64,000 bases of DNA from Gnetum montanum (lineage: Eukaryota > Plantae > Gnetophyta): positions 98,380 through 162,379 of the forward strand of contig MNCI01003132.1 of NCBI GenBank assembly GCA_015680685.1, given 5' to 3'. The position numbers were made by a program, and so were the translations under genes. This document shows, piece after piece, positions 39,575 through 63,400 of this stretch; positions within the stretch are counted from its first letter, which is position 1; each line of letters begins with the position of its first letter. The notes beneath the pieces were generated by a model that ran no database searches, had not been told where the DNA came from, and saw only the letters and a program-made list of their open reading frames with translations.

Positions 39575-42257
39575 TGTAACACCCTGCCCTAGCTAGGGTA
39601 GGGTGATGCCTAGGATTAAGTAATCTTAGCATGGAAGCATGATAACTAGAACCAATAATGTGCAGAATACATGATAATAAGAAAGGTGAAATGGTACAAA
39701 ACTTTCCTACCATACCAAAACTAAACATACATCTCATGTCATAAAAATGCATGTCTCTACATCAAGAAAACTATACACTTCTCTGCTAAAGACAAAAACA
39801 CATAAACCTCACCATCGTATATAGAAGAATATAGAGAGTTTCATACAAGGATATCTAGTCCACACTACTATACATGAAAATATACATTAACTGAGCACTG
39901 AATATTTTTTCCTTCTCTACCCTTCCTCTTCATGCTCACCTAGGCTCCTACTCCTTTTACTTATAATTAAATGAAGTTAGTACATAATTGAGTGGGAAGC
40001 CTTTACACTTCCTCTGCTAGATGATCGACAAGTGCTGCACTAGAATAGAGGAGTGGGGTACAAGGCAACCTGCAATAATCATTAGTCTTATGCATGCTCA
40101 AAACAACACACACCATATCACCCATAATGCTAACATACTATCATACAATCACAAATAAAGCCATGGTTTGATATCATCTATCTTGTCCATGTTATCATAT
40201 CCATGATATACAGTTAAAAAATTCATGATCCATACAATCATACCTCAACTAGAACACATATAATCCATGATATGACTCATAGAGCTATACTACCACATAC
40301 ATAGCCCATGTGGTGGCTAGCATCTTCACACTTAGTGTAGCATGTGAAACGTTGCCATAAGTACTTATAACAGCTATTGCCTCTAGGTCTTTTATTAGTA
40401 TTTTATTTATCTAACTAGTGCTAGGGTCCATCAACCTATGAATTGCAACCACTAGACTTCTAGAGGATTGGCAATAGGATAAACACACCTATGCCATGAA
40501 CCAGTTGTAGGGACAAACACACCTACACTCTGCCACTCTAAGGATGAGGCCTAAGAGAGGAGCCTCACTGATGCATCACAATGGGGGTTAATCCATACTA
40601 CCTCTAGGGTGCCTCATCACCAACTAGTCTACACCCTCATGCTAACACCACCTACTAAACATATACACAGTCTGGCTAGCTTAAGCCAATGTATGTCATA
40701 GGCACAACACACCCAAAAAAACATAACAACAAATATTCACCCCTAATAGTTATAGTCATTCCATGAAAATAATACCATGATGCAACAGAAAAATATGAAG
40801 ACCTTAATATGACAAAACAATACTATATTTCTCAAAAGACACTTACTTCCATACAAATGACCACTATAATAACCTTCAAAATGAGATATGCCCAAAGAGA
40901 AAAATAATTTCATGATTATAAAGTACTTTCCAAAATGATCCCAATGAAACTAATTTTACCTAAATTAGACTTCTGGAAGCAAAGTTATGCATGTTCAAAG
41001 TTTGATTAATAAAATAATATTTAATTACCACAAAAAAGGATAGGAACGCACAAAAATACGTATGTCCTAATAGACTCCACAAATAGCATATTCCAATCAT
41101 ATGAGTTTCATCAACACCACATATCCTATGCTACAAGTCCACATCATCCCATATATTACATATATATTAATCCACAATCTGTAACCAAAATCAGATAATT
41201 TTGGAAAAATAGACAAAATAACATGTCCAAGCTCAATCCTTGAGCTATCCATTCCACATGCCCACGTCGCATAATCATATACACTAATTTAGCACAAAAA
41301 TATAGGGAAAAGGTAAAGACAACCCACCAATTACAATTATTGGGTAGAAAGGCCAAAATAAGTAGAATATCCTTAAAAATTTGACAAGACTTCGTTTTAA
41401 TTCCAACAAGTTCTACACCCACATAGATATGACCATAGCAATCCCAAATCTAGGTTTAGAGCAAGTAAAAATCGTCCACAAGGCTCAAAACCAAGAAAAA
41501 AGAAAAGAGTAGAAAGAAAAACAAAAAAAAATAGACTCCTGTGTATTTCTATTTCTATGAACAGAAAAAAAGGAGAACCCAAAATCCAATTTCTCTCACA
41601 AGTGGTGGTGAGGCGGTGGCATGTAAAAGACATAAAAAAACATATCTAATAAAAATATGCATAAAGCATGTACTTTATGTTAACTAACATAACGATGCCC
41701 TTTTCTCACATGATGTGAGGTTACTTTTTGTTTTTTCTCATTTGCATTATTTATATTTCTATTTTTTATGAACGAATGATTTTCATAAGTTATTTTTATT
41801 TTTCATCTTTTCAATTAATACCGTAAACTTTAATCATGTGTAACAGACACATTGAGACTCCAAATCAAAATCCATTTCAACCTATGAGATCCTTATCATT
41901 TGCTCTACACATTCACATGCCAAAACCACACCCAAACATCACACAACATAGTTCTATAGTACAAATGCCAAAATACTAAAATTTCACATAAAACATAAAA
42001 ACATACTAGATAGATGTTATTGTACCCCAATCCAACACCCCTGCCAGCAACATCACCTATCTAACACATCACATAGTGCTAGTGTACACAATCACGTTAG
42101 TGAGGCATGTAAAGACATCATAATCATAACATAAAGACAAAGCCTCATAACATATAAAATACATTAACTCATCCCCAAAAATCCATTGAGACTCCACATA
42201 TAATGTATAAATCATTAGTAGATGACCATACCTACTGTCTATGGATGGGATGTAACA
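39575..42257. mobile_element. Solo LTR (chromovirus/Tekay-like termini) inserted in the RT of element C
   Basis: Termini TGTAACACCC...GGGATGTAACA; TSD GTTAG/ATTAG; removing it restores RT YSTWLANHVLVRKKNG; no coding domains inside. Confidence 0.85.
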
Positions 42258-45200
42258 ATTAGCAAGCCATGTTGAATATCAAACTAGATATATAATTCAG
42301 GCTTGTAATAACTTCTTGATCTCAGCTTCCATAGCTAGTTCAAATGATGGATTGAATTTCCTATATTTTTTCTTAATGGTTTTACAACCTTTTATTAAGG
42401 GAATTTTATGTATCATCACATCTAGTCTAAAAGCTTTAAGATCATCATAAGACTAAGCAAAATTGTCCAAATCATTTTCTAGTAGTAATAACAAGTTTTT
42501 CTTGAAAACTGAATTCTTTTCATTTGTAATATTTAACATCTTTGGCACCTTATTAGATCCAAGATTTACTTCTTCGAAAGCTTGATCATTGGAATTTACT
42601 TCATGTTCATAATGAATTATCCTTTTAGGAATGAAATTCACCTTAGATTTCAACATTGCCTTAGGTACAAATTGACCTTCAAATTCTTGTTTGTTTCTCA
42701 TAAACCTAAGTATTTGATTATCATCTTCAAATACTTACAAATGTTTATGTTATCTGATACTAATGGTTGATGTTCTTCTTCAATCATTACACATCCATAT
42801 CCTTCTATCTTTTACATGTCCAATGTCGAAGCTGCTTTTGCTAAGTCATCTACTATATAATTATCTTCTCTAACTATATGTTCTATCTAGTAGTGTTGAA
42901 ACTATTCTAACATTTTATAGACAAGTTGTTTATAAGGTTGTAAAAATGAGATTTTCACTATGCAATTACCTTTAACTTGTTTACAAACTAATATTGAATC
43001 TTCTTTTATAGTGATTACCTTAATTCCTTTTTCAAAAGATAATCTAATACCAATACACAAAGCTTCATATTCAGCCTTGTTGTTAGTACAATGGAAAGAT
43101 AGATGAATCGCCTTTAGAATTTCTAGTGAATCATTTCTTACTATAACTATCCTAGCTCCTACACCTTTAGAATTACATGAGCCATCAAAGTACAATTCCA
43201 ATTTGTTCTTCTCTTTGGATTCTTCATTTTTGGAACTATAAGTTTGTTGGAGTGTACAAATTTTGTTTCAAAAGTCTTTGTTTCAATAATTTTACCTATT
43301 CCATTTGAAGTAATATTATCAATCATCAAAGGTTCACTATACACATATATTTCGTTTTGTTCTCCTCTCCAAGGTAGCCACATGTGCAAATAATCTGTTG
43401 ATATGTAACCTAAGAAATTATTACTCCAACTACTACTCAATAAAAGACTATGTGAGTATGGTATATCTACCACTTGAATAGTTACTCTACTTTTGACACA
43501 GGGTTTAAAAGCGATTTCTAATAGAACATTTGGTAATTGACCCACAATCTTTACTCGTGTCCACTTGAATAATCTTTTTATTTGATTATTCAGGAATCAA
43601 ACCAAGTTTCTTGCATCTAAACAATGGCATTATAGTAGATGTGGCTTCAGAATCAACCAAACAATTGTGCAGATATTTATCCTTTAACTTCAATGTTAAA
43701 AGAAAAGGAGGAGTTTCTTTATAAGGAATANTGTTTCAAAAGTCTTTGTTTCAACAATTTTACCTATTCCATTTGAAGTAATATTATCAATCATCAAAGG
43801 TTCACTATACACATATATTTCGTTTTGTTCTCCTCTCCAAGGTAGCCACATGTGCAAATAATCTGTTGATATGTAACCTAAGAAATTATTACTCCAACTA
43901 CTACTCAATAAAAGACTATGTGAGTATGGTATATCTACCACTTGAATAGTTACTCTACTTTTGACACAGGGTTTAAAAGCGATTTCTAATAGAACATTTG
44001 GTAATTGACCCACAATCTTTACTCGTGTCCACTTGAATAATCTTTTTATTTGATTATTCAGGAATCAAACCAAGTTTCTTGCATATAAACAATGGCATTA
44101 TAGTAGATGTGGCTTCAGAATCAACCAAACAATTGTGCAGATATTTATCCTTTAACTTCAATGTTAAAAGAAAAGGAGGAGTTTCTTTATAAGGAATACA
44201 ATCATAAGTAGCCTTTAATCTCATTGTTATTAGACACATAACTTAACTCTAATTCTCTAACCCTTCTTTTGCCTTTAATAAACTCTAAAGTCTTTCTTTG
44301 TTGATCTCCTATTTGTAGTAATTGATATATGTTAATATTGGCCCTGGCATGTTTAATATCTTCAATAAAATCATATTCTCCATCTCTAATAAAGCTTGGT
44401 TTCTTTATCCATTTATTGAAAGATTGATTTGAAGTACTTTGTTCTACTTGATCCTCTTTACTCTTATTTTTCTATCTTCTACTTGGCTCAAAAGCCTTTC
44501 TCTAATGAGATGGATCAGTAATGACATTTGGAGGTCTAGAAGTAGTTAGTCTTTCTTTTGATCTCAGATTATATCCATTTTCCTCATTGTTATTACACTC
44601 CTCATATGAGGATATATCTTCTTTAGAACTTGATAGAGAAGAAGTCTCATTAGACCTAGAATTGGATTGGCTTGCATAATGAACACTAGATAGCTCATTA
44701 TCAAATTCAATATTAAGGAATTTGGACATAATAAGATCACTATCCTCCTCATCTTATACTAACTTAGTGTCATGATATTTATGTATTCTATTTTTCTTTT
44801 CCTCCTTGATATTAACTCTTGCCAAAGCTTTTTCTAGTTTCACTATTTTGTTGGACATATCTTGCATTAATTGTCCCTTTTCAAATTCTCTTCTTTTAGG
44901 TTGTTTCTCAATCTTAACATGAGATGGCCCTAGTAAATTTTTAAATTTAGCAAAATCTTGCATAGGAATCATAACGTTTTCTTCTTTCTTTTGAGTTGTA
45001 ACAATCTCTTCATGATTCAAGTTCAACTATTTTTCTAACTGTATAGCTTTACTAAAGTAGTCATTTAGTGTAGTTAAGTTTATAGTTCTTGTTAACCAAA
45101 TTGAAATGTTGGGGTTGATAGCCTTAAGATAAGTTTCTCAAAGCATTTCGTTTGATGGTCTATACTGTCTTTGAAAGAGACCACAAATTAATTGAAATTT

Positions 45201-45809
45201 GATGTTAAAATATCTAATTGATTCTTTGAGTCCTTGCTTAGTTTGTATTATCCCACAATATAGTTTTTGTTGATCTAATTGATCACCAAATTGGGCTAAT
45301 AAAAGACTTTTCATATCATCCCAACTTGTGATATTGTTGCTTAGCAAGTTTGAATACCAAATCTGAGCCATGTCCTTTAGATTTGTTATAAATAATCTAT
45401 AGGCTTGATCTTGGTGTTGAATATTTGCATGAGCTAAAGTTAACTCAAACATGTGAATATACTCTTTAGTTAAGTAAGCTTTTCCAGGAATAAAAGGCTC
45501 AAGTAAATATTTATAAACTATCTTAGAAATATCATTGTAGTTTTGAAATTCTAATGGTGTGACTCTTTGCCAAGGATTTACCATCTTATTCCTTTGGATT
45601 GTTGGACTCTTATACTTCTTAGATCTCCTCTTATAAACTAACAAAACAGATAGAAAAGGTGATCCTCTCAACCTTCTATTCTTTAATCCACTACTTGTTC
45701 CAAACTTAGAAACCTTCTTTTGTCCTTTTTTTGATGAACAATCAGTCTTATAATCAAGAATTTTCTTTGAACCTTTGAAACTTTTTAAACTATCAATCTT
45801 GTTACTCAT
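42258..45809 (-). pseudogene. gag-pol: gag-PR-aRH-RT(N-terminal) remnant of element C
   Basis: gag LFITNLKDMAQIWYSNL...ITSWDDMK...KQGLKESIRYF; PR NCLVDSEAT; aRH LYFDGS...TNNKAEYEAL...EDSILV...VDDLAK (42830-43201); RT start EEVNLG. Confidence 0.9.
43264..44198. other. 467 bp direct duplication straddling an N (probable assembly artefact)
   Basis: 43264-43730 and 43732-44198 differ at only two positions I could find and are separated by a single N. Confidence 0.85.
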
Positions 45810-45910
45810 GAATTGAAAATAGAATTTAATTTCTTAAGCCTTTATAGTAACAAATAATTGTAGATATGCTAGGACTATCAGGCTTATGAACTTAGAAGAT
45901 AAATTTTTAG

Positions 45911-45934: not shown

Positions 45935-48780
45935 TATTAGCAACCATTTGGGATGCAACCACCAATGAGTGCCTTGAACAGGGTTTAGGTGCTCATTGGT
46001 ATTTGGAAACATGAAGGCCCAAATACCTCTAAATAGACTTAGTAGTTAAACATGAGTATGTGTTTTCTATTTTGAATGTTGAAATAGTTGTGTTGCATAT
46101 AAAACTATAATCGACTATCATAAAAGCGATTTGGACAACTTTGTACAATACTGTGAGTTGTTAGAGATTCCTATTTTGTTCAATCACTTAGTCTATATGG
46201 TCATTATCATACCTACTTGTAACAAATAAAATTTTACAAAAACCATTTGAGTAGGATTCTGCTAATCTACTTCTAATTTTCCCAAGAGAGAGAAAGTTCC
46301 ATAAGAAAAGTATAAATAGAGCAAGATTCAATGGAAAGAAAAATAAAAGAAAGAAGATTTGTGTAAAAATCTCAAATATTTAAGCAAGGTAAATTAATAT
46401 GATGAAACAATTTACAATAAATTTGTCCCTAATTCAATATCTATGAATTTTTCAAACATTCTAGGGTCAAACAAGCAATCTCTTAAAGACAATTCTACTA
46501 TACTATCAAAAATTGCTACATAAACTACCACGTATGAGTCTCTATTTTAGCTAGATAATAGTTGTTAACAATTGCATTCAACATAGCTTTCAAAGATTTG
46601 AAAATTTCTTATTGAAATACCAAGGGGATATACTTTAAAAATCAAGAAGCTATTTTAGTCCTATCAAAATACCAAAGATTCTTTTGAATCCTCTAGACTA
46701 TTGAATTGCTCAATTGGCTTGTCTATAGTAGAGGCTCTCTTACAACAATCCTAATAGTAGCCTTAAACATTGCATAATAATAAAATTCTCTATTAAATTA
46801 CTCTTGAGGCTTTTCAACATGAGCTCTTCTATGGAAAATCTTAATAGGAGTTTACTATCACGCAATAAAGAACTATAAAAGTAATCTAAAAATTCCAAAT
46901 TTAAATGTTAAGCAGGATACTACCTAAACCATTAACTAAGAAATTAAAACAAAATAGGAAAGAATGAACTCACAGGATTAAGACAAATTAGTTAAAATGA
47001 TGTCTTTAGCAAGCCATCTTACAAGAAATCTTCAAATTTCTTCTTTTCAAAAATCTTCCCCTTTCCTTTGATTCTACCTTTGAAGCCTTTTTATAGTGCT
47101 TTAAGGTAGTTACATTCATCATAACAAGTTAAGGTGGGTTACAAATATCTAAGGAATTTACTCATAACTCCTTGGGAAGTTATAACTTCCATAACAAGTT
47201 ATGAGAAAATTAAGCTAAAATTGACATGTGTCTCCTTGGTGATGGAAAAAAGTAAAATAAACTACAAATATCTTGAAGTGTGGGTTAAACCAACATAGGA
47301 AGTTATAACTTTTCTAAAAGGAATAATGCCCAAATGTCATAAATTTCTCTCCTTCATTGTGATTTTTTTAAATGAAACTTTTCCTTTATATTAAATTTAA
47401 ATTATCTAAGCTTATACTATAACCTTATGTTCATGTTATTTCTTTCCCTTGAGCATTGGGAAATAAAACTACTTCTTTCTTTTTCCTTTAAATTCATTCA
47501 TGATTAATATAACAAAGGTTTAATGCTTTGCTGAATGGCCCTCATCTTTTTCCTTTGACGCCATTGATTTTGGTGGAATTTATGAAGTAGCAGTTTCAAA
47601 TGAAGCTTGATTGATGCAGTAGCTATACCTATGTAAGATTTGCCTCATAGTAAAGCTCAAATCTTAACATGTTAATCATCAAGGCTGTGATTAGGGAGTA
47701 AAGTGTACATGTGGTATTCCAATGGCTACCATCCTCAACTCTACTAAAACCCTCAACACATTGCAATGATTCTACACCCATGCTACCTGCACCTCTACCT
47801 AAGCCTAAGCCTAAGTGGTCACTGTGCTCATCATCTTGTCTTGCTAATGCATTTTTTTATTCTTTTTCTTTTGCATATGCTTCTACATGATTTTAGGAAA
47901 AATGCCCCAAAAGTTTCTAAGGCGGCAAAAGGCATTTTCTTAGACAAATAAAAGCCTATGCAAGATCAATGGCTTTGTTAAACAAACCAAGAAATGGAAT
48001 GTTAAATCAAAACCATTTATAGGTGTTGGTAATCAAAAATGATGTGAGGGGCAACTAAGCCAATTGGAGAAAACACAATACATTCATCATATGGGGTGTT
48101 AATTTACATGTTTTTATTTGTTTATATGTGTTGGTAAATGGGTTTATCACTAATATTGACTACACTATTCCTACCATTTTTCATAAAACCTCCATCATGT
48201 TGTTTCATCTTTCATCTTCTTTCTTGCATCATGAACAATTTTTATTATTTCCTAGGAATCTTTTCATGCAATCTAACTTTGCCTTGAAAAAAATGCTGAG
48301 GAAACCACTATTTTAATGGTAAACCATCAATCATGTGTGGTAATATATCTTTGAATTTTTCCAAGACCCTCCTCTTAGTTTCACATGCTTTTGGTTTGAA
48401 GATGTAGGTTTTGCACAACAATTAGTAAACTATCTTGGTAAACCCCTGCATAATCTAAAACTGAGGATTTTTGAATCCCTTATCTACTGATTTTGCTGAC
48501 ATTATGTAGTTCTAAGAATTTCTAGTTATTTTCCTTAAACAAAAAATCAACAAGCACTGGGTTCTCATCCTGCTGCCACTTGATAATTTTTAAATTCCTT
48601 CACAATAATCCCAATATGTAACGTTTCATGCTCATACTTTTAACAAAGTATATTTTTGGGTTGGCTTTCCTTTGCTTATTATTTTTATTATATATATGTA
48701 TATATTTTAAAATTTGTAAACTAAATTAAGTATCAAATCAACCAACACTACTCCATAAAATTGCAAAAAATGCATCAATA
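45935..48780 (-). repeat. 5' LTR of element C
   Basis: TATTAGCA...CATCAATA (termini decayed from TG...CA). Confidence 0.93.
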
Positions 48781-48972
48781 GTCCCTTAGAACCTTGGGAG
48801 CCTCCATCGCCTAGGATTGTTTAAACTTCTCCATCGTCTTCACACCATCAAAGGAGAATGTGTTTATCAAATTTTATTCTAGTATTCAATTTTGTAGTCC
48901 TAAACACTAGAAAATTTTGTAATGATTGTATATCTATACACTTAGGCACTTAGTGTTTGTTTTTGTTTGTTT

Positions 48973-51900
48973 ATTTCAACACTCAAGATCAGAAAATGGA
49001 AGCAAACAAACATTTATTGCACACAAACTTATTATAGAGCCTTAGGGATGCTTAGACAAGAACGCTTAGAAGACACACTATGTTGCTCTTCTGGTTTCTC
49101 TATCTAATACCTCTAAGGTATGTACATACTACCCTTTTATAGGAGAAGAGGTACCTCTCAAGACTTCAAGGAATAAGAAGGAACAAATTCTTTCTTATCT
49201 GATATAGTAGAGCAATCATTCAAAAAAGTAAAAGACTGACTCTTCAAGAAAGGAGATGGTAAAGTAACTACAGGACTGACTCTTCAAAAAAGTAAAAGGC
49301 AAAGGGGGCCTCCCGATGGAGGCATTAAGGAGTGTTAGCCAAGTCATCATTATTACCAGGAGTCTCTCCACTTTTTGAACTGGTGAAAAAATCTAGATAC
49401 CATTCTTGATCTACTTGCCAACCTACTAGATGGACAAGATGATCATACCCACCATTTTGTCAAAATCTAGCAACTCTGGAATCCAAGTTGGATATTTCTA
49501 AGGTTTGATTTATAAGCCCATTTTGACAATAATTCTCTTGAATATCATAGGGAATACTAGTGTAAACATTCTAGTAAAAAGCGTATCCCCATGGAGCTTC
49601 CCAAAAAAGCCTTTTTGAAATACAAGTACTTAAATAATAAAAAGCGAGACGACCTTGGTTGATGAAATGCTAGCCATGGGATTGTTGATTTTTGTAGTAA
49701 AGAAAATCATCTCTATGACTAGATAATTGATGGTAAAGGCTTCTTAGATAGTTTAGAGGTGTATACCTAGGAGAATGACTGTATCTGACCCACCATGGCC
49801 AAAATGCATGGTTTTTTGGGTCTGGTGTAGCTATGGGATTTATTTCAATAGTGTATATATGACAAGGACTTGGTTGTCTTAATGGCCAATCCATAGATAG
49901 AGGGTTAAATAGTTCTTCAAATTCCATAAGTTGAATTTCTACAAAGGTTGAAAGGTGGAGGTAAGGGGGTAAGTCAACATTATTTAAAGACAACAATAAT
50001 TATGGATGTCTTCTTTCATCAAAAGTTATTAAAATGGTCTGTGCAACCATATGATAGGGGTTGAAGGCTTTGGAGGTTTCTATGAAATTTAGCCAGTTTG
50101 TGGAATGCTAGAGTCAGACTTGGTGTTGTTCAAGAATAGGCATGTATGTTTCATTGGTTTGAAAACTTCTAATCCTCCTAGAATACTGAAGAGTACAACC
50201 TTCTACTTCAAACAAACCTATAAACATATTTAGAAAATCAAACAAAGATTAGTACTTAGGAGAGATGAAACACTTTTGTTAGGAAATCTGCTAAACTATT
50301 ATTCTTATCACTAATATATTGTATTTTAAAACTAAAATTAGCAAGAAATAAAGACCATATTATTAAATGGGTGTGCACAACCTTATTAAGATTTTTAACT
50401 TGAAAATGTTTTTCAAAGTGCTTAAAGTGACTTCTTATAATGAATTCTTTTTCTTGTAAGAAGAGTCTAAAGCTTTCAATTCCTTTGATAATAGCTAGCA
50501 ATTCTTCATGCATACTATGATAGTTCTTTTGATTTGGTGAGAACTTACCGAAACCATACCTACAAATATAAATTATCCCATCTTTATCCTCTTTTAAGAC
50601 TGCTCCCTAATATTCATCAGATGCATTAGTTTCTACTATTAGAGTTCCATCTATTGGTAGTCGTAGCTGAGGTAGGGTTTTACAATGTGCTTTAATTCTT
50701 CTTACTATGTTTGTGTGTTGGGTAGTCTATGTTACAATGTTGTTACTAATTTGTTCATTTAGTCACTTACAATCTTTAGCTAAATCTTTGTAAAATCCAG
50801 ACACATAATTAACATAGCCTAAGAAGTGTTGTAATTTAGAAATTACTTCAAGGACATGAGATTAGAGTGTAACTTTTCCATGGATAATTTCTAACCCAAG
50901 GAATTAAATCTTTTTTTGTGCTATTTTCATTTTTATTGGTGAGAGTACTAATCCATTCTTGTCTACCAATTGGAAAAACTATTCAAGATGCTCTAGATGT
51001 TGAGTGGCATCTTTACTCATTATTAAAATATCATCACTATATAATATAATAAAGGAAAAATAGGAGAACATTTTATCCATTATTTGTTTGAAAATGGAAG
51101 GAGATTTTTTAATTCCAAAAGGCAAAATAGTCCATTCATATGGCCCACTTGGAATAGTGAAAGTAGTTTTCCATCGATCCTCTGAGTACACATGGATTTA
51201 CCAAATATCATATTTTAAATCAAATTCGGAGTAGATGTGTGTGTTTGGTAGATTTTGAAATAAATCATCCTTGCTAGGGATTGGATGCTACATGAATTTA
51301 ATTAATTCATTTCAAGGTTTATAATTAACAGCTAATGTCTTTTAACCATTAATTTTCTTTGTCCTTTTATTTACATAAAAGGAAACACAAGAGAACATGT
51401 TTGTGCTAGGTTGCATTAATCATTTTTGCAAAAGTTGATTTATTTCTATGTCACATTCGTTTTTCAACTCAAGTGAAATTCCTATGTGGTGCGCTTTTGC
51501 TTTAATTTTAATTTTTTCTTTTAAATCAATATGACACCACTGCTATTTTTTTCATCGAAAAGTTGTTGGATCATTGGATGCTACTACTAGCAGTTCTTCT
51601 TTTATTTTCATAAATTACTCCACTTTCTTACTTACTTGGTTAACTATCCATTGGGTACTACCTATTTTTTGAGGTACTATAGTTTCAAACCTTATTTTAT
51701 TCTATGATAAATCCAGATGTTGGAAGTTTTTTAAAATTATGGTAGTATTAGTTATGGTATAGGGCTCAAACTGACTAAAATTATCTATACCTATCAAAAG
51801 ATCATAAGAAGGGAGATCTAATTAAAATATTTTAAAGAAAATTATGGAATTATCTAGAGCTAAGATAAGAAGGCCTTCTTCAAATTCTATGATACATTTT

Positions 51901-52975
51901 TACATGTTAAAGGCAACATGCAATGTTCTTCTAGGCTTCCATAAAAATGAAGGTAAAATGCCAGGTATTCCTAATGATATTTTTGCTCAGTTGTGTAGTA
52001 AAGAATCTACTAGATATGCATTAAATGAAGGTAACTTAATCAAGAATGTACACATGAAAATAGTGGCTTTTTTGTATTTTATTTTCATTGATTATATTTA
52101 TAGGTAAGGTTGTTTTACTAGTTTCCTCTTAATACTGAAGTGTTTGTTTACTATCCTCTTCTAAGGTTAACTTTTGAATTTATTTAGATGTCCATTCCAT
52201 AAAGATTTTTAACCATTGGATCCTATATTTTCTCCACATGGATCTTGTTAACTCAGGTTGGATTTTTCTAGGTTCTTTTCATAAAGAATGTTTAGAAGGA
52301 ATATCTTCTTTTTCTTCTAAAAGCTTTTCTAATTCTTCGATGTCTTCATTAGTCGAAGCATATGGTTGAGTGTCTAAAAAAACCTGTCTTTCTTTCTTTA
52401 AGTGTCTTTTGTGTAACTTTAGTTCTTTTTTCATTTCTTGTAGTTGTTTTTCTACAACCATATACTTAGAGATGTTTTCTATAGGTGTTCGTTTTAATTT
52501 ACTTTTTAAGAAACTAACCTAATTTTCTATTTCCATCTAGGTTGGGTCTTCTTCACGCTAGAGGGATATTTTTAAAAGATTTTTATATTTTTGATGGTGA
52601 CTATGGGATGAAGATGAAGAAGGACGTCTATTCATGTTATTAAAATAACAAACATCAAAATTCGATGAATGAGAAGAATTAGGAAATTCATCTGCCTCTC
52701 CCCTATAGGAAAAACAAGCTGGTGACTCATTAGAATATTCATTGGAGGTTTTAGGAAGAATTTCCCCATGTTGAAATGGAAAATGTTCATTAGAGATATA
52801 GTTAACATATTGCTTTGAGGCATTGTATTTCTAAAGGAAATTTACCTTTTTTGGATGTTGATTCTTTTGAGGACATTAGTTTGAGAAGTGGGGTCCATTG
52901 CACAGAAAGCATTTAACATATTTCCATGGTAATTTCTTAGAATGATGTTTAAATAGTTCTCAAAAAGTTTTAAAG
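48973..52975 (-). mobile_element. Endogenous caulimovirid, partial inverted copy (Zn knuckle-AP-RT-RH-ORF2-promoter-R)
   Basis: DRWKTTFTIPSGPYEWTILPFGIK...LYSDDILI; ELLAIIKGIESFRLFL; reverse complement of 53212-56951 and 59655-59914. Confidence 0.92.
49325..50227 (-). pseudogene. Viral ORF2 (300 codons, no frameshift), unknown function
   Basis: ATG 50227 to TAA 49325 in one frame with a few TAG/TGA/TAA stops; homologous to 55726-56599. Confidence 0.75.
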
Positions 52976-53213
52976 GGTCACCCTACTATATCAGATAAGA
53001 AAGAATTTTTTCCTTCTTATCCCTTGATGTCTTGAAAGGTGCCTCCTCTCCTATAAAAGGGTATTATGTACATACCTTAAAGGTATTAGAAACAGAAACT
53101 AGAGGAGCATCATAGTATGCTTCGAAGCATTCCTATCTAAGCATCCCTAAGGCTCTATAATAAGTTTCTATGCAATAAAATTTTTCTTGCTTCCATTTTC
53201 TGATCTTGAGTGC
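52971..53213 (+). promoter_or_regulatory. Extra copy of viral promoter/terminal-redundancy (R) region
   Basis: TATAAAAG at 53052 and AATAAA at 53174; direct repeat of 56702-56946. Confidence 0.85.
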
Positions 53214-53849
53214 TTGTTTTTCTGAAGGGGGAGAGGCGTCTAAATTGCCTAATTCTTCTCATTCGTTTGATTTTGATGTTTGTTATTTTAATAACATGAA
53301 TAGTTGTCCTTCTTCATCTTCATCTCATAGTCATTGTCAGAAAGAAAAAAATCCTTTAAAAATATTTCTTCAGCCCAAAAAAGACCCAACCGACATTGAA
53401 ATAGAAAATTAGGTTATTTTCTTAAAAAGTAAATTAAAAAGAACACCTATAAAAAACATCTCTAAGTATATGGTTGTAAAAAAACAACTAAAAGAAAACA
53501 CAAAAGAACTAAAGTTACACTAAAGACACTTAAAAGAAAGACAAGTTTTTCTAAATGCTCAACCATAAGCTTCAATAGATAAAGACATTGAAGAATTAGA
53601 AAAAATTTTAGAAAAGGAAGATACCCCTTTTGAACATTCTTTAGAAAAAGAACCTAGATAGCTCCAACCTGAGTTAACAAGATCCATGTGGAGAAAACAT
53701 AGGATCCAACAATTAAAAATCTTTATGGAATTAGCATCTAAAGAAATTCAAGAGATAACCTTAGAAGAGGATAGTGAACAAATACTTCAGTATGAAGAGG
53801 AAACTAGTAAAATAGCCTTACCTATAAATATATTAAATGAAAATAAAAT

Positions 53850-55697
53850 ACAAAAAGCCATTGTTCTGATGTTTTGATTCTTAATTAAGTTACCTTTTTT
53901 TAAAGCATATCTAGTATATGTTTTACTACACAATAAAGCAGAAATATCATTAGGAAGACCTGATATTTTACCTTCATTTTTATGGAAGCTTAGAAGAACA
54001 TTACATGTTTCCTTTAACACGTAAAAACATTCCATAGAATTTGAAGGAGACCTTCTTATATTAGCTCTAGATAATTCCATAATATTATTTAAAATATTTC
54101 AATTAGATCTTTCTTCTTATGATCTTTTGATAGGTATAAATAATCTTAGTCTCTTTGAGCATTATACCATAACTAGTACTACTATAATTTTAAAAACCTT
54201 CCAATATTCATGTTTATCACAAAATAAAATAAGGTTTGAAACTATAGTACCTCCAAAAATAGGTAGTACCAAATGGATAGTTAACCAAGTAAGTAAGAAA
54301 GATGAGAAATTTATGAAAATAAAAGAAAAACTCCCAGAAGTAGCATCCAATGATCCATCGGCTTTCTGACGAAAAAAAATAGCAATGGTGTCATATTGAT
54401 TTAAAAGACAATATTAAAATTAAAGAAAAAGTGCACCACATAGAAATGTCACTTGAGTTGAAAAAAGAATGTGACATAGAAATAAATTAACTTTTGCAGA
54501 AAGGATTAATTTAGCCTAGCACAAGCATGTTCTCTTATGCCAACTTTTATGTAAATAAAAGGATAGAGCAAATTAAAGGTAAAAAGAAATTAGTTATTAA
54601 CTATAGACCTATAAACAACTTAATTAAATGCAAGCAACATCCAATCCCTAGGAAGGAAAATTTATTTCAAAAATTACCAAACACACACATCTACTCCAAA
54701 TTCAATTTAAAATCTAGTTTTTGGTAAATTCAGGTGTACCCATAGGATTAGTGGAAAATCACTTTCACTATTCTAGGCGACTTGTATGAATGCATTGTCT
54801 TGCCTTTTTGCATTAAAACAACTCCTTCCATTTTTTAACAAACAATGGATAAAATTTTCTCCTGTTTTTCATTTATTATAGTATATATTGATGATATTTT
54901 AATAATGAGTAAAGATGTTACTCAACATCTAGAGCATCTTGAATAGTTTTTCCAATTGGTAGACAAGAATGGATTAGTACTCTTATTGACAAAAATGAAA
55001 ATAGTGCAAGAAAAGACTGAATTCCTTGAGTTAGAAATTATCCATGGAAAAGTTATGCTTTAATCTCATGTCCCTGAAGAAATTTCTAAGTTCCTTGATG
55101 AATTAATAGAAAAAAAAATTACAACGCTTCTTAGGTAGTGTTAATTATGTGCCCAGATTTTACAAAGATTTAGCCAGAGATTGTAAGTTACTAAATGAAC
55201 AACTTAGTAACAACGTTGTAACAAGGACTATCCAACACATAGACATAGTAAGAAGAATTAAAGCACATTGTAAAACCCTACCTTAGCTATGACTACAAAT
55301 AGATGAAGCTCTAATAATAGAAATTAACGCATTTGATGAATATTGGGGAGCAGTGTTAAAAGAGGATAAAAATGGAATAATTTACATTTGCAGGTATGGT
55401 TCTAGTAAGTTATCACAAAATCAAAAGAACTATCATACTATACATAAAGAGCTACTAGCTATCGTCAAAGGAATTAAAACCTTTAGAATTTTCTTACAAG
55501 AAAAAGAATTCATTATAAGAAGTGAATTAAAGCACTTTGACAAATATTTGCAAGTTTCGAATTTTAATAAGGTTGCACACACTTGTTTAATAAGATGGTC
55601 TTCATTTTTTGCTAATTTTAGTTTTAAAATACAATATATTAGTAGTGAGAATAATAATTTAGTAGATTTCCTAACAAGAGAGTTTCATCTCTTTTGA
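53850..55697 (+). pseudogene. Viral AP-RT-RNase H
   Basis: YDLLIG; EQIKGKKKLVINYRPIN; IYSKFNLKSSFW; VYIDDIL (54884); ICRYGSSKL...NYHTIHKELLAIVKGIKTFRIFL...NNLVDFLTRE. Confidence 0.92.
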
Positions 55698-55725
55698 GTA
55701 CTAATCTTTGTTTGAGTTTGTAAAT

Positions 55726-56599
55726 ATGTTTATAGGTTTGTTTAAACTAAAGGGTTGGACTTTTCGATATTCCATGAGAATTAGCAGTTTCCAAACCAAT
55801 GAAACATACATGCCAATTCTTGAGCAACACCAAGTCCAACTCTAGCATTCCAAAAAGTGGCTAAATTTCATAGAAACCTCCAGAGCTTTTAGCCCTTATT
55901 ATACAATTGCATAAACCATTTTAACAGCTTTTGATGAAAGAAGACACCCACAAGAATGGTTGTCTTTAACTAATGATGACTTACCCCCTTACCTTCACCT
56001 TTCAACCTTTGTAAAAATTCAACTTATGGATTTTGAAGAACTATTTGACGATAGATCCTTGCCATATACACACTATTGAAATAAATCCCATAGCTACACT
56101 AGACTCTCAAAACCATGCATTCTGGTCATGGTGGTCCAGATATGGTCATTCTCCTAGGTATGCAATTCCAAACTATCCAAGAAGCCTTTACCATCAATTA
56201 TCCAATCATCGAGGTGATTTTCTTTACTACAAAAATTAGAAATCCTGTGGCTAGAATTTCATCAACCAAGTTCATACACCTCTCTATTGTTTGAGTACCT
56301 GTATCTCAAGAAGGCTTGATCAAGAAGCTCTATGGGGATACACTTTTTACCAAAATGTTTACACTAGTAATCCCTATGACATTCAATACCATTATTGTCA
56401 AAATGGGATTATAACTCAAACCTTAGAACTATTCAACTTGGATTCCAAAGTTGCCAAATTTTGATAAAATGGTGGGTATGAGCATCTTGTCCATCTAGTA
56501 GGCTGGTAAGAAAATTAGGAATTATATCCAGATTCTTCCGATAGTTCAAAGAGTGGAGAATCTCCTAGTCATAATGATGACCCAGCTAATACTCCTTAA
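55726..56599 (+). pseudogene. Viral ORF2, plus-strand copy
   Basis: MFIGLF...LPPYLHLSTFV...HAFWSWWSRYGHSPRY...PANTP*; small frameshifting deletion near 56050. Confidence 0.7.
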
Positions 56600-56619
56600 T
56601 GTCTCCCTATAAAGGCCCC

Positions 56620-56911
56620 CTCTATCTTTTACTTTTTTGAAGAGTCAGTCTTGTAGTTACTTTACCTTCTCATTTCTTAAAGAGTCAGTCTTTTACTTTT
56701 TTGAAGGGTCACTCTACTATATTAGATAAGAAAGAATCTGTTCCTTCTTATCCCTCAAAGTCTCGAGACATGCCTCCTCTCTTATAAAAGGGTATTATGT
56801 ACATACCTTAGAGGTATCAGACAAAGAAACAAGAAGAGCAGCATAGTGCACCTTCTAAGCATTCTTGTCTAAGCATCCCTAAGGATTTGTAATAAGTTTG
56901 TGTGCAATAAA
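56620..56911 (+). promoter_or_regulatory. Viral pregenomic promoter and polyadenylation signal
   Basis: Repeated AAGAGTCAGTC modules, TATAAAAG at 56783-56790, AATAAA at 56906-56911. Confidence 0.75.
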
Positions 56912-56966
56912 AATTTGCTTGCTTTCATTTTCTAATCTTGAGTGCTGAAATTCTCACATAGAAAAA

Positions 56967-56979
56967 TGGTATTGGAGCC
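56967..56979 (+). other. Viral minus-strand primer binding site (tRNA-iMet)
   Basis: TGGTATTGGAGCC versus canonical TGGTATCAGAGCC, located between the polyA signal and MP. Confidence 0.85.
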
Positions 56980-57179
56980 AATGTGTTGAACATTTTGTTA
57001 TGCTTTGAATATCATTGTATGAGGTTCTGAGTGAATAGAGGAAGTGATTATACACCATCATCTTGAAGTTCTACTTGCTTAGATTACCAAATAGCATCAG
57101 TCACGTAGCAAGGCCCGATAGACAATGGCGAAGTAGGTCATGCAAAAAGAGGTAATTCTAATATCATCCTTCAACATCA

Positions 57180-57929
57180 ATGGAAAACACCCATACTCTT
57201 TCAGGTTCCTCTTGCTCTAACTCTTATATTAAGCATTTAGTGTTGTTTTGTCAACATTCGAATTTCTCCACTTCATTACCTATTCCAAAATGCTCTAAAA
57301 TTTATGATTTGAAAAGCTTTTCATTCTTTGAAACCTACAAGGAATTATATCTTTCTGAATGTGATCTTGAAATTTTGGGTACTAATTTTCACCCTATTTC
57401 CTTAACAATTTTTTCACTAGGGGAGGTTGCACAATGGATTCAAAAAAGTTACAAATACAACCACATAGCTAAACTTTCAATCCACATACAACCTCACTTT
57501 AACTATAGGCTGCAAAATCCCTAGTAGATTTCTCTTATTGACAAAAGGTTTAAGAATTGTAGAGATGCTATAATTACTCAAGCCAAAGGTAAATTAGCAA
57601 CTAATGCTCTTGTAATTGTTGTTATGAGTTTCACCTTATCCCTCCATGATGCAAACTTATATAAAAGCTTAATGCTTATAGCCTATATTCTAGTAAACAT
57701 GGAAGAAAAAAGTAGTTATGCAACTATAGGAAATTACTTATGTTTTAAGCTATTTGATTCAACAAGTATTAGACCTTTATTGCCCTTAGGAGAACAAGAT
57801 TTACAAGTTGGTTCTACAAACATTGAATATGGGGTAAGTATTAAGATAGAAGAACTCCCAATTCACACCCAGTATCCTAACTTAATAGATCTCCAAGATA
57901 AATATTATGAATACCTTAAACCTTCTTGA
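57180..57929 (+). pseudogene. Viral 30K-superfamily movement protein domain
   Basis: KYNHIAKLSIHIQPHF; D-motif SLIDKRFKNCRDAII; FTLSLHDANLYKSLML. Confidence 0.8.
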
Positions 57930-58859
57930 ACTCATTTAAAAAGAAGGTACCAAGTCTAGTTAAATCCTCTAAGATTTACAGATTAGGATCCCTTTCAAGT
58001 CTATTCATCCTCCTATTCAATCTTACCACCTTTACTTGGTGTTAATTCACAACCTCATGAAGACCTATCCTGATTAGATATTATTGAAAAATAAAATACA
58101 GTAGCAAATCTAGTAAAAATATTTCATGAATTAGGCATCAAAATACTAGTAGAAACAATTTTAGGAGAGATTCCCACTTTACCTAAATAAAGAGGGAAAG
58201 CCAAAATAGAAGAATGTAGTTCTTCAAAAAATGATTCTAATTTTGAGGAAGCATCTTCAACTGATCCTTCTTACAAACATCTACAAGTACAAAAAATATA
58301 TTATTAGTATCACTATAAGGAGTGTGACACTTTCCTTAAAATAAACACCAACAAAGTAGATGAAGAAGTAGAAAAACTGATTAAACAACTAGAACACAAA
58401 CCACTAATAAAAGAAATAGAAAGAACTAGAGAATATATTGATAAAAGAAAGCTTATCAAAGAACAAAAAGAACTAGCAGATATTATTAAACTAGAAAATT
58501 GGGCTAATATACATATGGACCAATTAGTAGGAGAAAGTCAAAAACATACATCTAGTTTAGCTTTTCTAGAAAATGAGGTAAAACAAATAAGAGAAGTTTG
58601 GGTTCCTAAAGGAACAAGATCAAATTCTTCTTGGCTTAAATGAACTGATTATATTCCTTTTACTAGATCTTCGCCACACATAGGTACATCCCATAGAACA
58701 ATATGTAGAAGAACACAAAAGGAATTAGCTAAGAAAAAAGGAAAATGTTTAGCCATTAATGCTAATACAACTATATATGTATATTCTAACTCCTCTTTAA
58801 CTGTCCAAGAGTCTAAATCCTCTTATGACACAAAAGAAGAGTTGCTAATAAAGAAAACT

Positions 58860-59790
58860 ATGATAGGATACCAAGAAGACCCCATAGATTTTTTAGGAAT
58901 TCAAATTAGAAAATTTGGTGATAAACATCCAAAATTTAATATGGATTAGAAATATTTAAAAGGTCATCAAGATACCATAGATGCTATTCAAGGATATCTA
59001 GATGTTCAAATTTACCTAGAAAAGAAAGAATCAAAATTAGCTATCTTTAATGCCACATATAACTTTAGAGGCATTCTACGAAGATGGTGGAATCATGTTC
59101 CTTCAAGTATTAAAAGAAAATTAACTTCTGCTCCTACGATTATATTTTTAAATGCAATGATTAAATAATTCTTTGGAAATAAGGCCAATCTTTATCATGT
59201 TTATTGCAATTGATTCTTTAAATCTAGGCTATCTAGAATTCAAGATTTACATATGTTTCTTGATGAAATGGAACAATTGTACTACTTTGGTAAATTCATA
59301 CATGAAATAGATGCTAAAGAAAACTTATTAGGATGTTTACCATAGGCTTTCTACAATAAATATCATGCAAAATTAAAAAGAAAAAATTTAAATTTAGGAG
59401 AAATGAGTTTCGGTGCTATACGACAATTTCTAACAGATGTAAATAGAGAACTCTATTACAATCAGGAGGTCCAAAACTTAGTTAGAGATCTAAGTCATAA
59501 ATTAGGAAAAAGCCTTTATTTAAAACTCTATTTGGAAGAAAAAATTAAAAACTCAGAAAAAGATTGTGCTTCCTGTTCTTGTAAAAATAGGTCTACTAAA
59601 CCTAGATAAGCATATAAACCATGAAATCAGCAATGGAAAAGAAGGTATAACCCGCAACCCTCAAAAAATTTTTGAGGACTGTTTAAACGTCATTTTAAGA
59701 AATTACCATAGAAAGGTGTTAAATGCTTTATGTGCAATGGACCCCACTTCTCAAACCAATGTCTTCAAAAGAATCAACATCCGAAAAAGG
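58860..59790 (+). pseudogene. Viral coat protein domain with zinc knuckle
   Basis: NFRGILRRWW motif; basic region; KCFMCNGPHFSNQC at 59721-59762. Confidence 0.75.
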
Positions 59791-59992
59791 TGAATTTCCT
59801 TTAGAAATACAATGTCTTAGAGTAATATTTTGACCATATCTCCAATGAACATGTTCCATTTACACATGGAGACATTATTCTTGAAACCTTCGATGAATAT
59901 TCTGATGAGTCACCTATCATCAATCAATAATCCCATAGCTTCCCAAATTTGTAAAGAACTTGATAACAAGTTTTCATTCAATCATGAGGGTA

Positions 59993-60486: not shown

Positions 60487-63400
60487 TGATGAAGTCAAAT
60501 TTTGATGAGTAATGATATTGCAACAATGATATTGTGTATATGATATCATAGCACATGCTATGTCATCATAGATATAATATATCGGGATGTTTACAACCTT
60601 ATAAATACAATACTTAGATGCACAGTTTGCATAACTTTTTAGTCCATAGTAACTAGACTCTATTAATTTGATTTCGTAACTTAGTGATAGAAGTGTATGC
60701 TCGTAGTTTGGTGTTAGACAGTGAATGGTGTCTTTATTTGAACAGATTATACTTGGATGTAATTTATGCATGACAATAAAGATTGAGCTAAATCAATGTA
60801 GCATCACTTAGTTTACTCTTTGTTTACTTAGAATAATTTTCCATGTTTTCTTAGTTAGCACTTTACCTTTTTGAAGTACTTACTTTACACATGCACTTAG
60901 TACATCAACATGGGTACAACTAGTTCTTTACATTAAGTATGGTTGTTTGGTAATCCTAGTAGTGATGCTATTTGATTCACTCAATGATAACTTCACTTGG
61001 TAACGCAGTGGCAATTGCATAAGTTCAAGACATGATTGGAGAACCAGGAATGGATACCTACTACTTAGGATAAAATAGATATACTAAATTGCTATTCATT
61101 AGACTTAGAAATTATTTTCACTTCATCATGTTCGCTAGGAGTAATAATGGCCAAATAATATTAGATATCATATACCTCATGGTGAGCTAAATCATACACA
61201 TAGACTTTACTAGCTCCACATGGGAAGATAAAAGTCTCAAACTTAAACCAATTACTAGCATATTAACATTATCTCATTCACAGATTACAATTAGGTTGCA
61301 CGTGAACACCCATAACTTGTATGGTTGGGTGTTGGATTGTTGCACCACTCATCATTGGCATCATTGTTAGGAATGTGTCAATGTATGTTGAATAATTGAT
61401 TTTATAAAGTTTGTTGTATTAGGAAACCTTAATAATTCTAAACACTGTAGAAAACTTAACCAAATGTCTAAAAATCATAAGATGGCTTCAATCAAATATA
61501 AATCACCACCTACCAAAGAATCAAACAAAGAAAATGATAGAATTAGTGAAGAAGAAGAATGGAGTATGCTAATGAGAGCAAGGGTTTCATATGCTCATCA
61601 TGCTCCTTACTATCCCAATTTTTCTTTCATCTTTGAACAATACAAGAAACTAAGGTGGAGAGATCTTCAAGGTAACATTATTCTACCTTTAGAGTGCTCA
61701 ACATCCATCATGATTCAAATAGCACTAAGGGACATGAATCTAAGTAATGCACTTGACAGGTATTATGTGATCAAACACATGACAAGGCCCTATCAACCCA
61801 CTGAGGAGCATGTGAAAAGAGATGTTACCATGGAGATTAAACATGTTCTTAATAAGGAAAAGAAAATCAAATCTCCTATTATATTAGAAGAGCTTAATGG
61901 TGATGTATTCATCACTGAAGAACTCCACCAGAATCATGAAGTGCATTCACAAACACCTATCATCCCATTGGAGGAACTTGTCAAAGTGCAATTACATTTT
62001 GCCTTAGTAGAGACACCCATAAGGGAGGCAACAGGCTCAAAGAAGGACTCAAGGATAAGAGTTTTTGTTAGATCCTACAAAGAAGAATAATAGAGTCATA
62101 GAAGAAGGACAAGCTAGCACCATTCTCCCATTACCTCATGTTCATCTTCATAATCATCAATGGACTCTGATAGGAGGAGATAGAGATATCGAGACCATGA
62201 TATGGAGGAAAGAAGGACTTGTGCTCACCATGACTATCACTTGAGGCACTCTAATGAAGAGGATGAAGACTATGAATAAAGAAGATGCATGGATAGGAGA
62301 GAAGATAGAGAAAGGCATGAGCACCAAAAGGGGTACCACTACAATAGAGCTCATGAACCAGATTATGATGATGAATCCCTATTGGCTACTCAAAGTATGA
62401 TTAACATCAAGGAAGGTGTTTATATCCCAACCAGGCATGTAAGGGATAGTCATATCAAGTGACTTGACATGAAAAATATGTCTAGATTACATGGAATGAT
62501 AATCAAAAAACTAAATCACTAAGGATGGTAAGTGAGAAACCTCAAGTTTACAATCTAGGGGAACTAGAGTATATCTTCCAAACACTTGCCCATAAGTTTA
62601 GTCATGGGAGAGATGCCTTACCATGATCTAGGAATTAATAAGGGTTTTTTAATTTTTTGTCTTACAATTCTTTTTTTTTTATCATTTCTTGTTATACTTT
62701 CCCATATTTCTTACTAATTTTCATATTCTTTGATATCTTCTCATTCTTTTATACTTTTTCATTTCTTAAATTTTTACTATTCTTGAAAATTTTTCCATTT
62801 TTTAATGATTTTTCATTCTTTTCATCTTTTCATTTTTACTATATTTTACAATCTTTCATACCTCATTTCCATTTTACTTGTACATATTTTTGTTCAATCA
62901 TTAATAAAACACCATGAATAACATAAGATATAGTCTCAAATAAGGTGATGATTTTTGCATGTTATTGAGTCATAAGGAATTGATTGTTTGTACAGTGAAA
63001 CCACAACATCCATCCATGCATTCCAATCATAAGAATCTCTTACAATGGACATAATGATATTCTTTCTCATCATAAAACTAAGAATAAACTTCTAATCAGT
63101 ATAGCTAGATAGAAAAGAAAAGAATGAAGTAGGAATGTCAAGGGTGTGGCATCAAGGGGATTTTTGGAATCACTTAGACCACTACTGTATGTTCTATCAT
63201 GTTTCCAAGGTTGTAATTATATTCTTGTAGATCTAATGAAAAATGGAAGTAAAATTTCAATAAGTGCTACCTTACCATGTCATTGGAAAGACATGTTACC
63301 CATGCATGAAGGTAGTCCTTTGGTAAGGATGACACATATAAAAATAAAACTCAGGGGTTCCACTAGAAAGACATGTTACTCATGCTTAAAGGTAGGTGAA

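What the first reader, a model, noticed from the sequence alone, without database searches (positions are those of the whole stretch)
53212..59914. Complete, circularisable genome of a probably undescribed endogenous pararetrovirus
Seen: exactly one genome length (~6.7 kb), whose ends are shown to be adjacent by the inverted copy. Circularised, it gives PBS(Met), a short leader, MP-CP-AP-RT-RH (~5.3 kb, probably one polyprotein), ORF2 and promoter. Known: this two-ORF layout resembles florendoviruses, which are typically larger. Inference: a compact florendo/gymnendovirus-like lineage. About 60% is present twice, so ancestral reconstruction is feasible.
Basis: partly seen in the sequence, partly recalled or inferred. 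Interest (0 to 1): 0.8.

Follow-up and report, generated by a model that had tools for sequence, protein, structure and literature searches.

The report
Fossil plant virus with internal clock
A heavily decayed copy of a plant reverse-transcribing DNA virus, one whole genome long plus an inverted partial copy, sits in a host repeat; it is likely an undescribed species of a known virus family, and the drift between its two arms likely dates the insertion.

Summary
53212-59914 is one circularly permuted genome length (6.7 kb) of an endogenous caulimovirid; the inverted copy at 48973-52978 bridges its two ends, and an unnamed 1768-aa relative (P0005) is colinear over the whole MP-CP-AP-RT-RH frame, junction included. 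It is a dead fossil: 39 stops and two frame breaks in ORF1. The real unit is larger than reported: sequencing contigs join 48970 to 59914-59917, so both arms form one 10.9-kb insert in a high-copy host repeat. The arms differ by 14%, evenly over codon positions, as neutral decay predicts, and as much as a neighbouring LTR-like pair. Related copies cover the whole genome in five DNA runs under four organism labels. The florendovirus reading is not supported: four trees place RT-RH outside the florendo-like clade, near a Taxus element and (3 of 4 trees, unstarred) petuviruses, which fits the published gymnosperm group B.2.2. The size lies within the published gymnosperm range (6.1-8.1 kb). ORF2 has no homologue found. 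Verdict: likely new species of a known kind; genus-level novelty untested. Interest 0.35.

The parts
48973..59914 (.). Whole viral insert, about 10.94 kb, one block inside a host repeat
   Evidence: Contigs join 48970 to 59914-59917, skipping the block, in 5 of 5 DNA runs laid; self-BLAST
53212..59914 (+). Unit A: one permuted genome length, opened just downstream of the coat-protein zinc knuckle
48973..52719 (-). Arm B: inverted copy of linker, AP, RT, RH, ORF2 and promoter region; decayed (11 stops in RT-RH, 6 in ORF2, a 28-nt gap)
52721..52978 (-). Inverted copy of the CP end with the zinc knuckle; runs on into arm B and so bridges the two ends of unit A
52968..53214 (+). Third copy of the promoter and poly(A) region (equals 56699-56946); 11-nt and 3-nt overlaps with its neighbours
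57180..59914 (+). ORF1, 5' part: likely start codon at 57180, movement protein (about 57363-57764), coat-protein region, zinc knuckle CX2CX3HX4C (59724-59762); 20 in-frame stops
   Evidence: Pfam MP E 5.9e-13; 38% to P0005 1-930
53212..54380 (+). ORF1, middle: coiled-coil-like linker and aspartic protease region; catalytic motif not recognisable in either copy; 7 stops; frame break near 54380
   Evidence: 32% to P0005 975-1328; 36% to its AP region; no Pfam hit
54383..55108 (+). ORF1: reverse transcriptase, 8 stops; frame break near 55110
   Evidence: RVT_1 E 7.2e-18
55110..55697 (+). ORF1: RNase H; the frame ends just after it, as in P0005
   Evidence: RT_RNaseH E 6.7e-20
55810..56599 (+). 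ORF2, about 270 codons, no homologue found; frame break in unit A, single frame in arm B
56600..57179 (+). Intergenic region: TATA-like box 56783, AATAAA 56906, PBS-like site 56967-56978, leader of about 200 nt to ORF1; no unusual fold
   Evidence: roles inferred from position
48779..48970 (.). Left host flank, part of the interrupted repeat
   Evidence: joints and depth
59915..60484 (.). Right host flank, very high-copy repeat
   Evidence: summed depth about 64,000-70,000 against 90-360 in the viral bins of run X1; 86% to 23810-24257

Best explanation
This is a decayed, rearranged copy of a caulimovirid genome (one 6.7-kb permuted unit plus an inverted 4-kb partial copy) inside a high-copy host repeat, likely captured in one DNA-repair event and likely drifting neutrally since. 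Shown: gene order, ends, copy structure, decay, a multicopy family. Inferred: the source virus had a circular genome of about 6.7 kb, primed reverse transcription with tRNA-Met, and made one MP-CP-AP-RT-RH polyprotein of about 1,740 aa plus a separate ORF2 protein of about 270 aa. Inferred: lacking an integrase, viral DNA was patched into a chromosome break as filler; microhomology-guided switches joined three pieces, two breakpoints lying 12-20 nt upstream of the primer site, where virion DNA has a strand break (recalled). The arms were near-identical then, so their distance (K2P 0.154) is a clock like an LTR pair's. The virus is likely a new species of caulimovirid clade B, probably the gymnosperm group B.2.2 beside petuviruses; the host is likely a gymnosperm.
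For: Colinearity with P0005 over the whole ORF1; Pfam MP, RT, RH; no integrase family in P0005 or the pieces. Joints across the block in 5 of 5 DNA runs laid, best sides 40-52 letters. Overlaps of 11 and 3 nt at the inner junctions. Differences between arms by codon position 154/138/144, p=0.64; 13-15% in every gene and in the intergenic part; K2P 0.154, equal to the LTR-like pair 34609-37433/45947-48778. All 30 of 30 bins covered in each DNA run, most laid contigs under 95% alike, up to 27 contigs differing at one place of the single-copy MP part. Window plus P0005 starred in 4 of 4 trees, outside the florendo-like clade in 4 of 4, grouped with petuviruses and the Taxus element in 3 of 4. Three RNA runs gave 0 reads at 99% or more and mean depth under 2 inside the insert.
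Against: One tree (quick) puts the group beside the florendo-like clade and its allies (SH-aLRT 96); the petuvirus link is never starred (87; 91/88; 90/92). No named florendovirus, gymnendovirus 1, 3 or 4, or B.2.2 reference was in the trees; 'florendo-like' is my label for unnamed angiosperm-type rows, and the make-up of B.2.2 is read from the order of an unlabelled sheet. The linker stretch alone shows fewer second-position changes (37/17/30). The joints come from other copies of the repeat or an empty allele, which I cannot tell apart, and some have short sides. ORF2 and the intergenic length are checked only against arm B. The host is not shown.
Confidence: 0.8

Rival explanations
1. The arms come from two already different virus variants or two insertions at a hotspot, so their distance is not an age.
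For: Tandem arrays, rearrangements and hotspots are common for these elements (PMC10377300 passage); the linker stretch shows 37/17/30 changes by codon position.
Against: Over all coding parts the changes are even (p=0.64); no host DNA lies between the arms; the flanks join across the whole block; all three copies of the promoter region are about equally distant (K2P 0.11-0.16).
Confidence: 0.1
2. It is a compact florendovirus or its close kin.
For: Same two-ORF layout (PMC10377300 passage); the highest RT-only identity of P0005 is to a florendo-like row (58%); sister to the florendo-like clade and allies in 1 of 4 trees.
Against: Never inside the florendo-like clade (100/100); RT identity under the 62% OTU cut; P0005 lacks the Pfam domains DUF7746, DUF7588 and the coat domain that the florendo-like row P0027 shows; Wollendovirus has the same layout, so it is not diagnostic.
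Confidence: 0.05
3. The unit is a shortened or defective genome of a larger virus; 6.7 kb is not the true size.
For: Below the 7.1-9.8 kbp of recognised members; ORF2 and the intergenic region have no independent relative to check; the arms differ by gaps up to 28 nt.
Against: ORF1 matches P0005 end to end without a large gap; family depth is of one order over all viral bins; 6,061-8,109 bp is published for gymnosperm elements.
Confidence: 0.08
4. Assembly artefact or an LTR retrotransposon that took up a movement protein.
For: The window is packed with LTR-element remains.
Against: Arms differ by 14%, unlike a mis-assembled duplicate; near-identical contigs exist (6 differences in 448 nt, 3 in 403); RT-RH is split from gypsy rows by a 100/100 branch; no integrase, no terminal repeats.
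Confidence: 0.02

Closest known systems
Group B.2.2 of endogenous caulimovirids (PMC13308828; likely OTUs 20, 4, 25, 11, 8, 17, 7, 12)
   Same: Described as the branch beside petuviruses, in gymnosperms; OTU 4 is from Taxus, and the nearest named row here is a Taxus chinensis protein (P0020).
   Different: P0005 is only 54% identical to P0020 over RT, under the 62% cut, so probably another OTU; no genome map of the group was in the text I read; direct comparison was not possible.
Florendovirus
   Same: Polyprotein with MP, CP, AP, RT, RH plus an ORF2 without homologues.
   Different: Separate RT-RH clade; zinc knuckle CX2CX3HX4C instead of CX2CX4HX4C in the florendo-like rows checked; reported as restricted to angiosperms.
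Petuvirus (PVCV, Citrus EPRV)
   Same: Clade B; domain order; nearest recognised genus in 3 of 4 trees.
   Different: PVCV carries about 380 aa after RNase H in one polyprotein, here ORF1 stops after RNase H; RT-RH 41% to P0005.
[quoted passage not shown]
   Same: Gymnosperm caulimovirids; WolV1 has the same two-ORF layout with a tRNA-Met site.
   Different: PnV1 is 42% over RT-RH and on its own branch; WMV1/2 are 7.9 and 7.6 kb with one ORF; WolV1 is 9,631 bp with a 568-aa ORF2. WMV and WolV1 sequences were not compared.
Unnamed record P0005 (1768 aa, contig of 6,010 nt)
   Same: Colinear polyprotein, same short knuckle, same stop just after RNase H; 57-59% to the decayed RT-RH; the only close match among 1.84 billion representatives.
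   Different: Uninterrupted frame; a different species; roughly 67% before decay by simple arithmetic, so probably the same genus-level group; no name, no context.

Membership tests
Caulimoviridae (endogenous) | 30K movement protein | tested here: met
   Pfam PF01107 E 5.9e-13, above cut-off
Caulimoviridae (endogenous) | Coat protein with CCHC zinc knuckle | tested here: met
   Knuckle CX2CX3HX4C at 59724-59762, region 50% to P0005 and 22% to P0023, which has a weak coat-domain hit; no Pfam coat hit in the window itself
Caulimoviridae (endogenous) | AP-RT-RNase H in order, no integrase, no LTRs | tested here: met
   AP by likeness to P0005 only
Caulimoviridae (endogenous) | RT-RH groups with caulimovirids, not Ty3/gypsy | tested here: met
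   100/100 branch
Caulimoviridae (endogenous) | tRNA-Met primer-binding site | tested here: inconclusive
   10 of 12 at 56967, chance-level alone, but in the expected place between poly(A) signal and ORF1
Caulimoviridae (endogenous) | Circular dsDNA episome and virions | not testable with these tools
   Circularity is inferred from the permutation only
Florendovirus | ORF1 polyprotein plus orphan ORF2 | tested here: met
Florendovirus | RT-RH inside the florendovirus clade | tested here: not met
   Outside in 4 of 4 trees; the clade's label is inferred, no named reference in the set
Florendovirus | RT identity of 62% or more to members | tested here: not met
   P0005 at most 58% to florendo-like rows; decayed copies at most 45%
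Petuvirus | Single ORF running on past RNase H | tested here: not met
   ORF1 stops after RNase H in both copies and P0005
Petuvirus | RT-RH inside the petuvirus clade | tested here: not met
   Outside the 100/100 clade
Group B.2.2 (PMC13308828) | Branch beside petuviruses with gymnosperm elements | tested here: inconclusive
   3 of 4 trees, unstarred; 9-row group with the Taxus protein starred only in the quick tree
Group B.2.2 (PMC13308828) | RT identity of 62% or more to one of its OTU references | not testable with these tools
   The three supplement files read hold names, no sequences
Gymnendovirus 2 group with Pinus nigra virus 1 | RT identity and clade | tested here: not met
   48% over RT for P0005; separate branch
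Gymnendovirus 1, 3, 4 | RT identity and clade | not tested
   Published genomes exist in a supplement of PMC5766536 (headers seen) but could not be brought into the comparison

The most novel reading that the evidence does not exclude
A genus-level caulimovirid lineage missing from the 71 published OTUs, with a 6.7-kb two-ORF genome, a shortened zinc knuckle and an ORF2 protein family of its own; the uninterrupted relative P0005 would mean the lineage was active far more recently than this fossil, and the inverted arms give a direct, LTR-like age for an element class that normally has no internal clock.
Probability: 0.3. Interest if true: 0.55.

Novelty: new member of a known kind. Interest (0 to 1): 0.35.

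Why it matters
Modestly. Fossil caulimovirids are common in plant genomes, and most deep gymnosperm groups are known from RT-RH trees rather than gene maps in the papers read. This locus gives the full gene map of one such lineage from a single place, with an orphan ORF2. Its inverted arms, if copied at insertion, date the infection in host substitutions (0.077 per site), something these LTR-less elements rarely allow; presence under four organism labels offers a second, independent minimum age. It is not a new kind of system and shows no sign of activity.

Tried and rejected
No genome is held for the window, so copies could not be counted in an assembly. IMG/VR scan with P0005: 30 pattern matches, 0 confirmed. 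No RNA holder listed, no evidence either way; small RNAs were not examined. Leader fold not stronger than shuffles (z 0.75). The sigma-70 scan is irrelevant to a plant promoter and chance-level. Rfam: 0 matches. No (TA)n run of 3 or more units within 100 nt of either edge. Clean LTR ends and a target-site duplication for the neighbouring LTR-like pair were not found, so that comparison is approximate. Earlier scan findings: 3 look-ups, nothing. Paper searches for the CX2CX3HX4C knuckle with caulimovir* and for junctions at the primer site found nothing on point. Tree rows: 56 of 129, 32, 64 (adding 38 of 148 new hits at 38% or more), 27; the rest were dropped as near-duplicates or retrotransposon-like. 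Rejected: summed depth as a copy number (the tool warns against it).
Full report
Observation. A self-BLAST of the window shows that 48973-52719 is the reverse complement of 53212-56951 (84.8%) and 52721-52978 of 59657-59914 (86.8%). Read on the minus strand these two pieces follow each other within about a base and in one frame, so the end of the 6,703-nt unit (59914) and its start (53212) were neighbours in the source molecule. 3,998 of 6,703 nt (60%) are present twice. A third piece, 52968-53214, repeats 56699-56946 on the plus strand (85.5%).

Genes. With X at stop codons, Pfam finds MP (E 5.9e-13), RVT_1 (7.2e-18) and RT_RNaseH (6.7e-20), and nothing for the protease region or ORF2. A search with the RT piece gave 8 hits among 572 candidates, the best an unnamed 1768-aa protein, P0005, at 54%. 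P0005 aligns in order from its first residue at 57180 to 59846, across the junction in the inverted copy, and on through 53251-55688; it ends 9 residues after the RNase H motif, as the window frame does. So ORF1 was one MP-CP-AP-RT-RH polyprotein of about 5.2 kb. The coat region is 50% identical to P0005 and ends in a CX2CX3HX4C knuckle; the protease region is 36% identical to that of P0005, which has a DSG motif, but the motif is not recognisable in either window copy. ORF2 (about 270 codons) lies in one frame in arm B. A TATA-like box (56783), AATAAA (56906) and a primer-site-like 12-mer (56967, 2 mismatches) follow in the expected order; the last is chance-level taken alone (5 seen, 4.4 expected). 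Unit A has 39 stops in its ORF1 frames (20, 7, 8, 4), frame breaks near 54380 and 55110 and one in ORF2; arm B has 11 stops in RT-RH and 6 in ORF2. Neither can code.

One insert. No genome is held, so I used public runs. Of 21 rows listed, 9 hold the stretch or part of it, from 3 studies; shares are 0.57-0.59 and 0.29 for organism A, 0.49 for B, 0.41 for C, 0.32 for D. Paralogues at 85% would leave under 1% of 31-letter words, so such shares imply the same locus or a near-identical duplicate in B, C and D (inferred; the labels may be varieties). In 5 of 5 DNA runs laid, contigs join 48970 to 59914-59917 and skip about 10.94 kb (depth 395 in X1, best sides 40-52 letters), and the right flank has summed depth near 64,000-70,000. 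So both arms are one block in one copy of a very common host repeat. The inner junctions carry overlaps of 11 and 3 nt, and two breakpoints fall 12-20 nt upstream of the primer-like site. PMC10377300 (passages) describes capture as filler DNA by end joining or microhomology, and frequent rearranged, inverted copies; the link to the strand break at the primer site is recalled, and my searches for it found nothing on point.

Family and age. All 30 of 30 bins are covered in each DNA run, most laid contigs are under 95% alike, and up to 27 contigs differ from the window at one place in the MP part that the window holds once: a multicopy family over the whole genome; I give no copy number. The arms are 86.3% identical, K2P 0.154, ts/tv 2.0, 13-15% different in every gene and in the intergenic part. 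By codon position the changes are 154, 138 and 144 (p=0.64), as neutral decay predicts and viral selection does not; the linker alone is uneven (37/17/30). The neighbouring LTR-like pair has the same K2P. Each arm has thus gathered about 0.077 changes per site: about 6 million years at the 1.3e-8 used in a conifer preprint, 35 million or more at the slower conifer rates I recall (about 2e-9 or less). Three RNA runs (2%, 26% and 26% read) gave 298, 178 and 105 laid reads, none at 99% or more, nearly all only partly fitting, depth under 2 in the insert: no sign that this locus is transcribed in those samples; small RNAs were not seen.

Kinship. With P0005's RT-RH as query, the best 120 of 746 hits are 34-50% identical apart from itself; named ones include a Taxus chinensis protein (50%), Pinus nigra virus 1 (42%) and PVCV (41%). 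Among 1.84 billion representatives P0005 is the only close match to arm B (59%; no other listed row above 45%). The two window copies are 70-73% identical as proteins, so the virus was roughly 67% identical to P0005 before decay (arithmetic): another species, probably the same genus-level group. In four trees the window rows and P0005 form a starred clade that is never inside the florendo-like or petuvirus clades. It groups with the Taxus protein, unnamed rows and petuviruses (87; 91/88; 90/92, unstarred) and beside the florendo-like clade and allies (quick, 96). 'Florendo-like' is my label for unnamed and angiosperm rows. PMC13308828 describes group B.2.2 as the gymnosperm branch beside petuviruses; the order in a supplement sheet puts OTUs 20, 4 (Taxus), 25, 11, 8, 17, 7 and 12 there (my reading). 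That is the best fit, and suggests a gymnosperm host, but neither is shown.

Novelty. The layout is shared with florendoviruses and Wollendovirus 1. The size is under the 7.1-9.8 kbp of recognised members but inside the 6,061-8,109 bp of gymnosperm consensus genomes. The 2026 survey holds 47,135 RT copies, 71 OTUs and 9,031 consensus sequences, so this family may already be in its data; I could not compare sequences. ORF2 has no homologue in the searches made. Verdict: new member of a known kind, interest 0.35; a lineage outside the 71 OTUs has probability about 0.3.

Papers seen. PMC13308828: abstract, Results, Discussion, supplement legends, supplement files 2 (part 1 of 2), 4 and 5; figures and sequence data not seen, and they bear directly on the novelty claim. 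PMC10377300: passages. 10.1101/170415: parts 1-2 of 4 (supplements closed; its consensus genomes not seen). 10.1101/2022.02.23.481439: parts 1-2 of 3. PMC5766536: passages and headers in supplement file 2. 10.64898/2026.07.23.736688: passages. Others: search listings only.

Noticed in passing
window 34609-37433 and 45947-48778: 2.8-kb direct repeat pair, 86% alike (K2P 0.154), around a minus-strand gag (45138-45833, Retrotrans_gag E 6.4e-10) and gypsy-type RT remains near 39200-39600: an old LTR retrotransposon ending about 190 nt from the viral insert.
   Followed up: partly
window 43264-44198: Tandem duplication of 468 nt, 99% alike, with an N at the join (43731): likely a scaffolding artefact.
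   Followed up: no
window 2884-3738 and 10910-11747: Direct repeat pair of 850 nt, 85% alike: probably the LTRs of a second old element.
   Followed up: no
window 28315-29398: Decayed gypsy-type RT-RH on the plus strand.
   Followed up: no
window 61392-62090: Open frame of 232 codons with no Pfam family, downstream of the high-copy repeat; possibly the start of a gag-like or accessory frame.
   Followed up: partly
window 51255-51287 and 54872-54904: About 33 nt of the RT region is shared with an unrelated sequence seen as loose ends in DNA runs and in two RNA runs: a short viral piece in another host context, or chance.
   Followed up: no
P0005, P0023, P0072 and window 59724-59762: Zinc knuckle one residue shorter (CX2CX3HX4C) than in PVCV, PnV1 and the florendo-like rows; P0072 lies in another clade, so it is not unique to this group.
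   Followed up: partly
whole window: CpG observed/expected 0.23 (0.18-0.19 in the viral copies): long-standing methylation and deamination.
   Followed up: no
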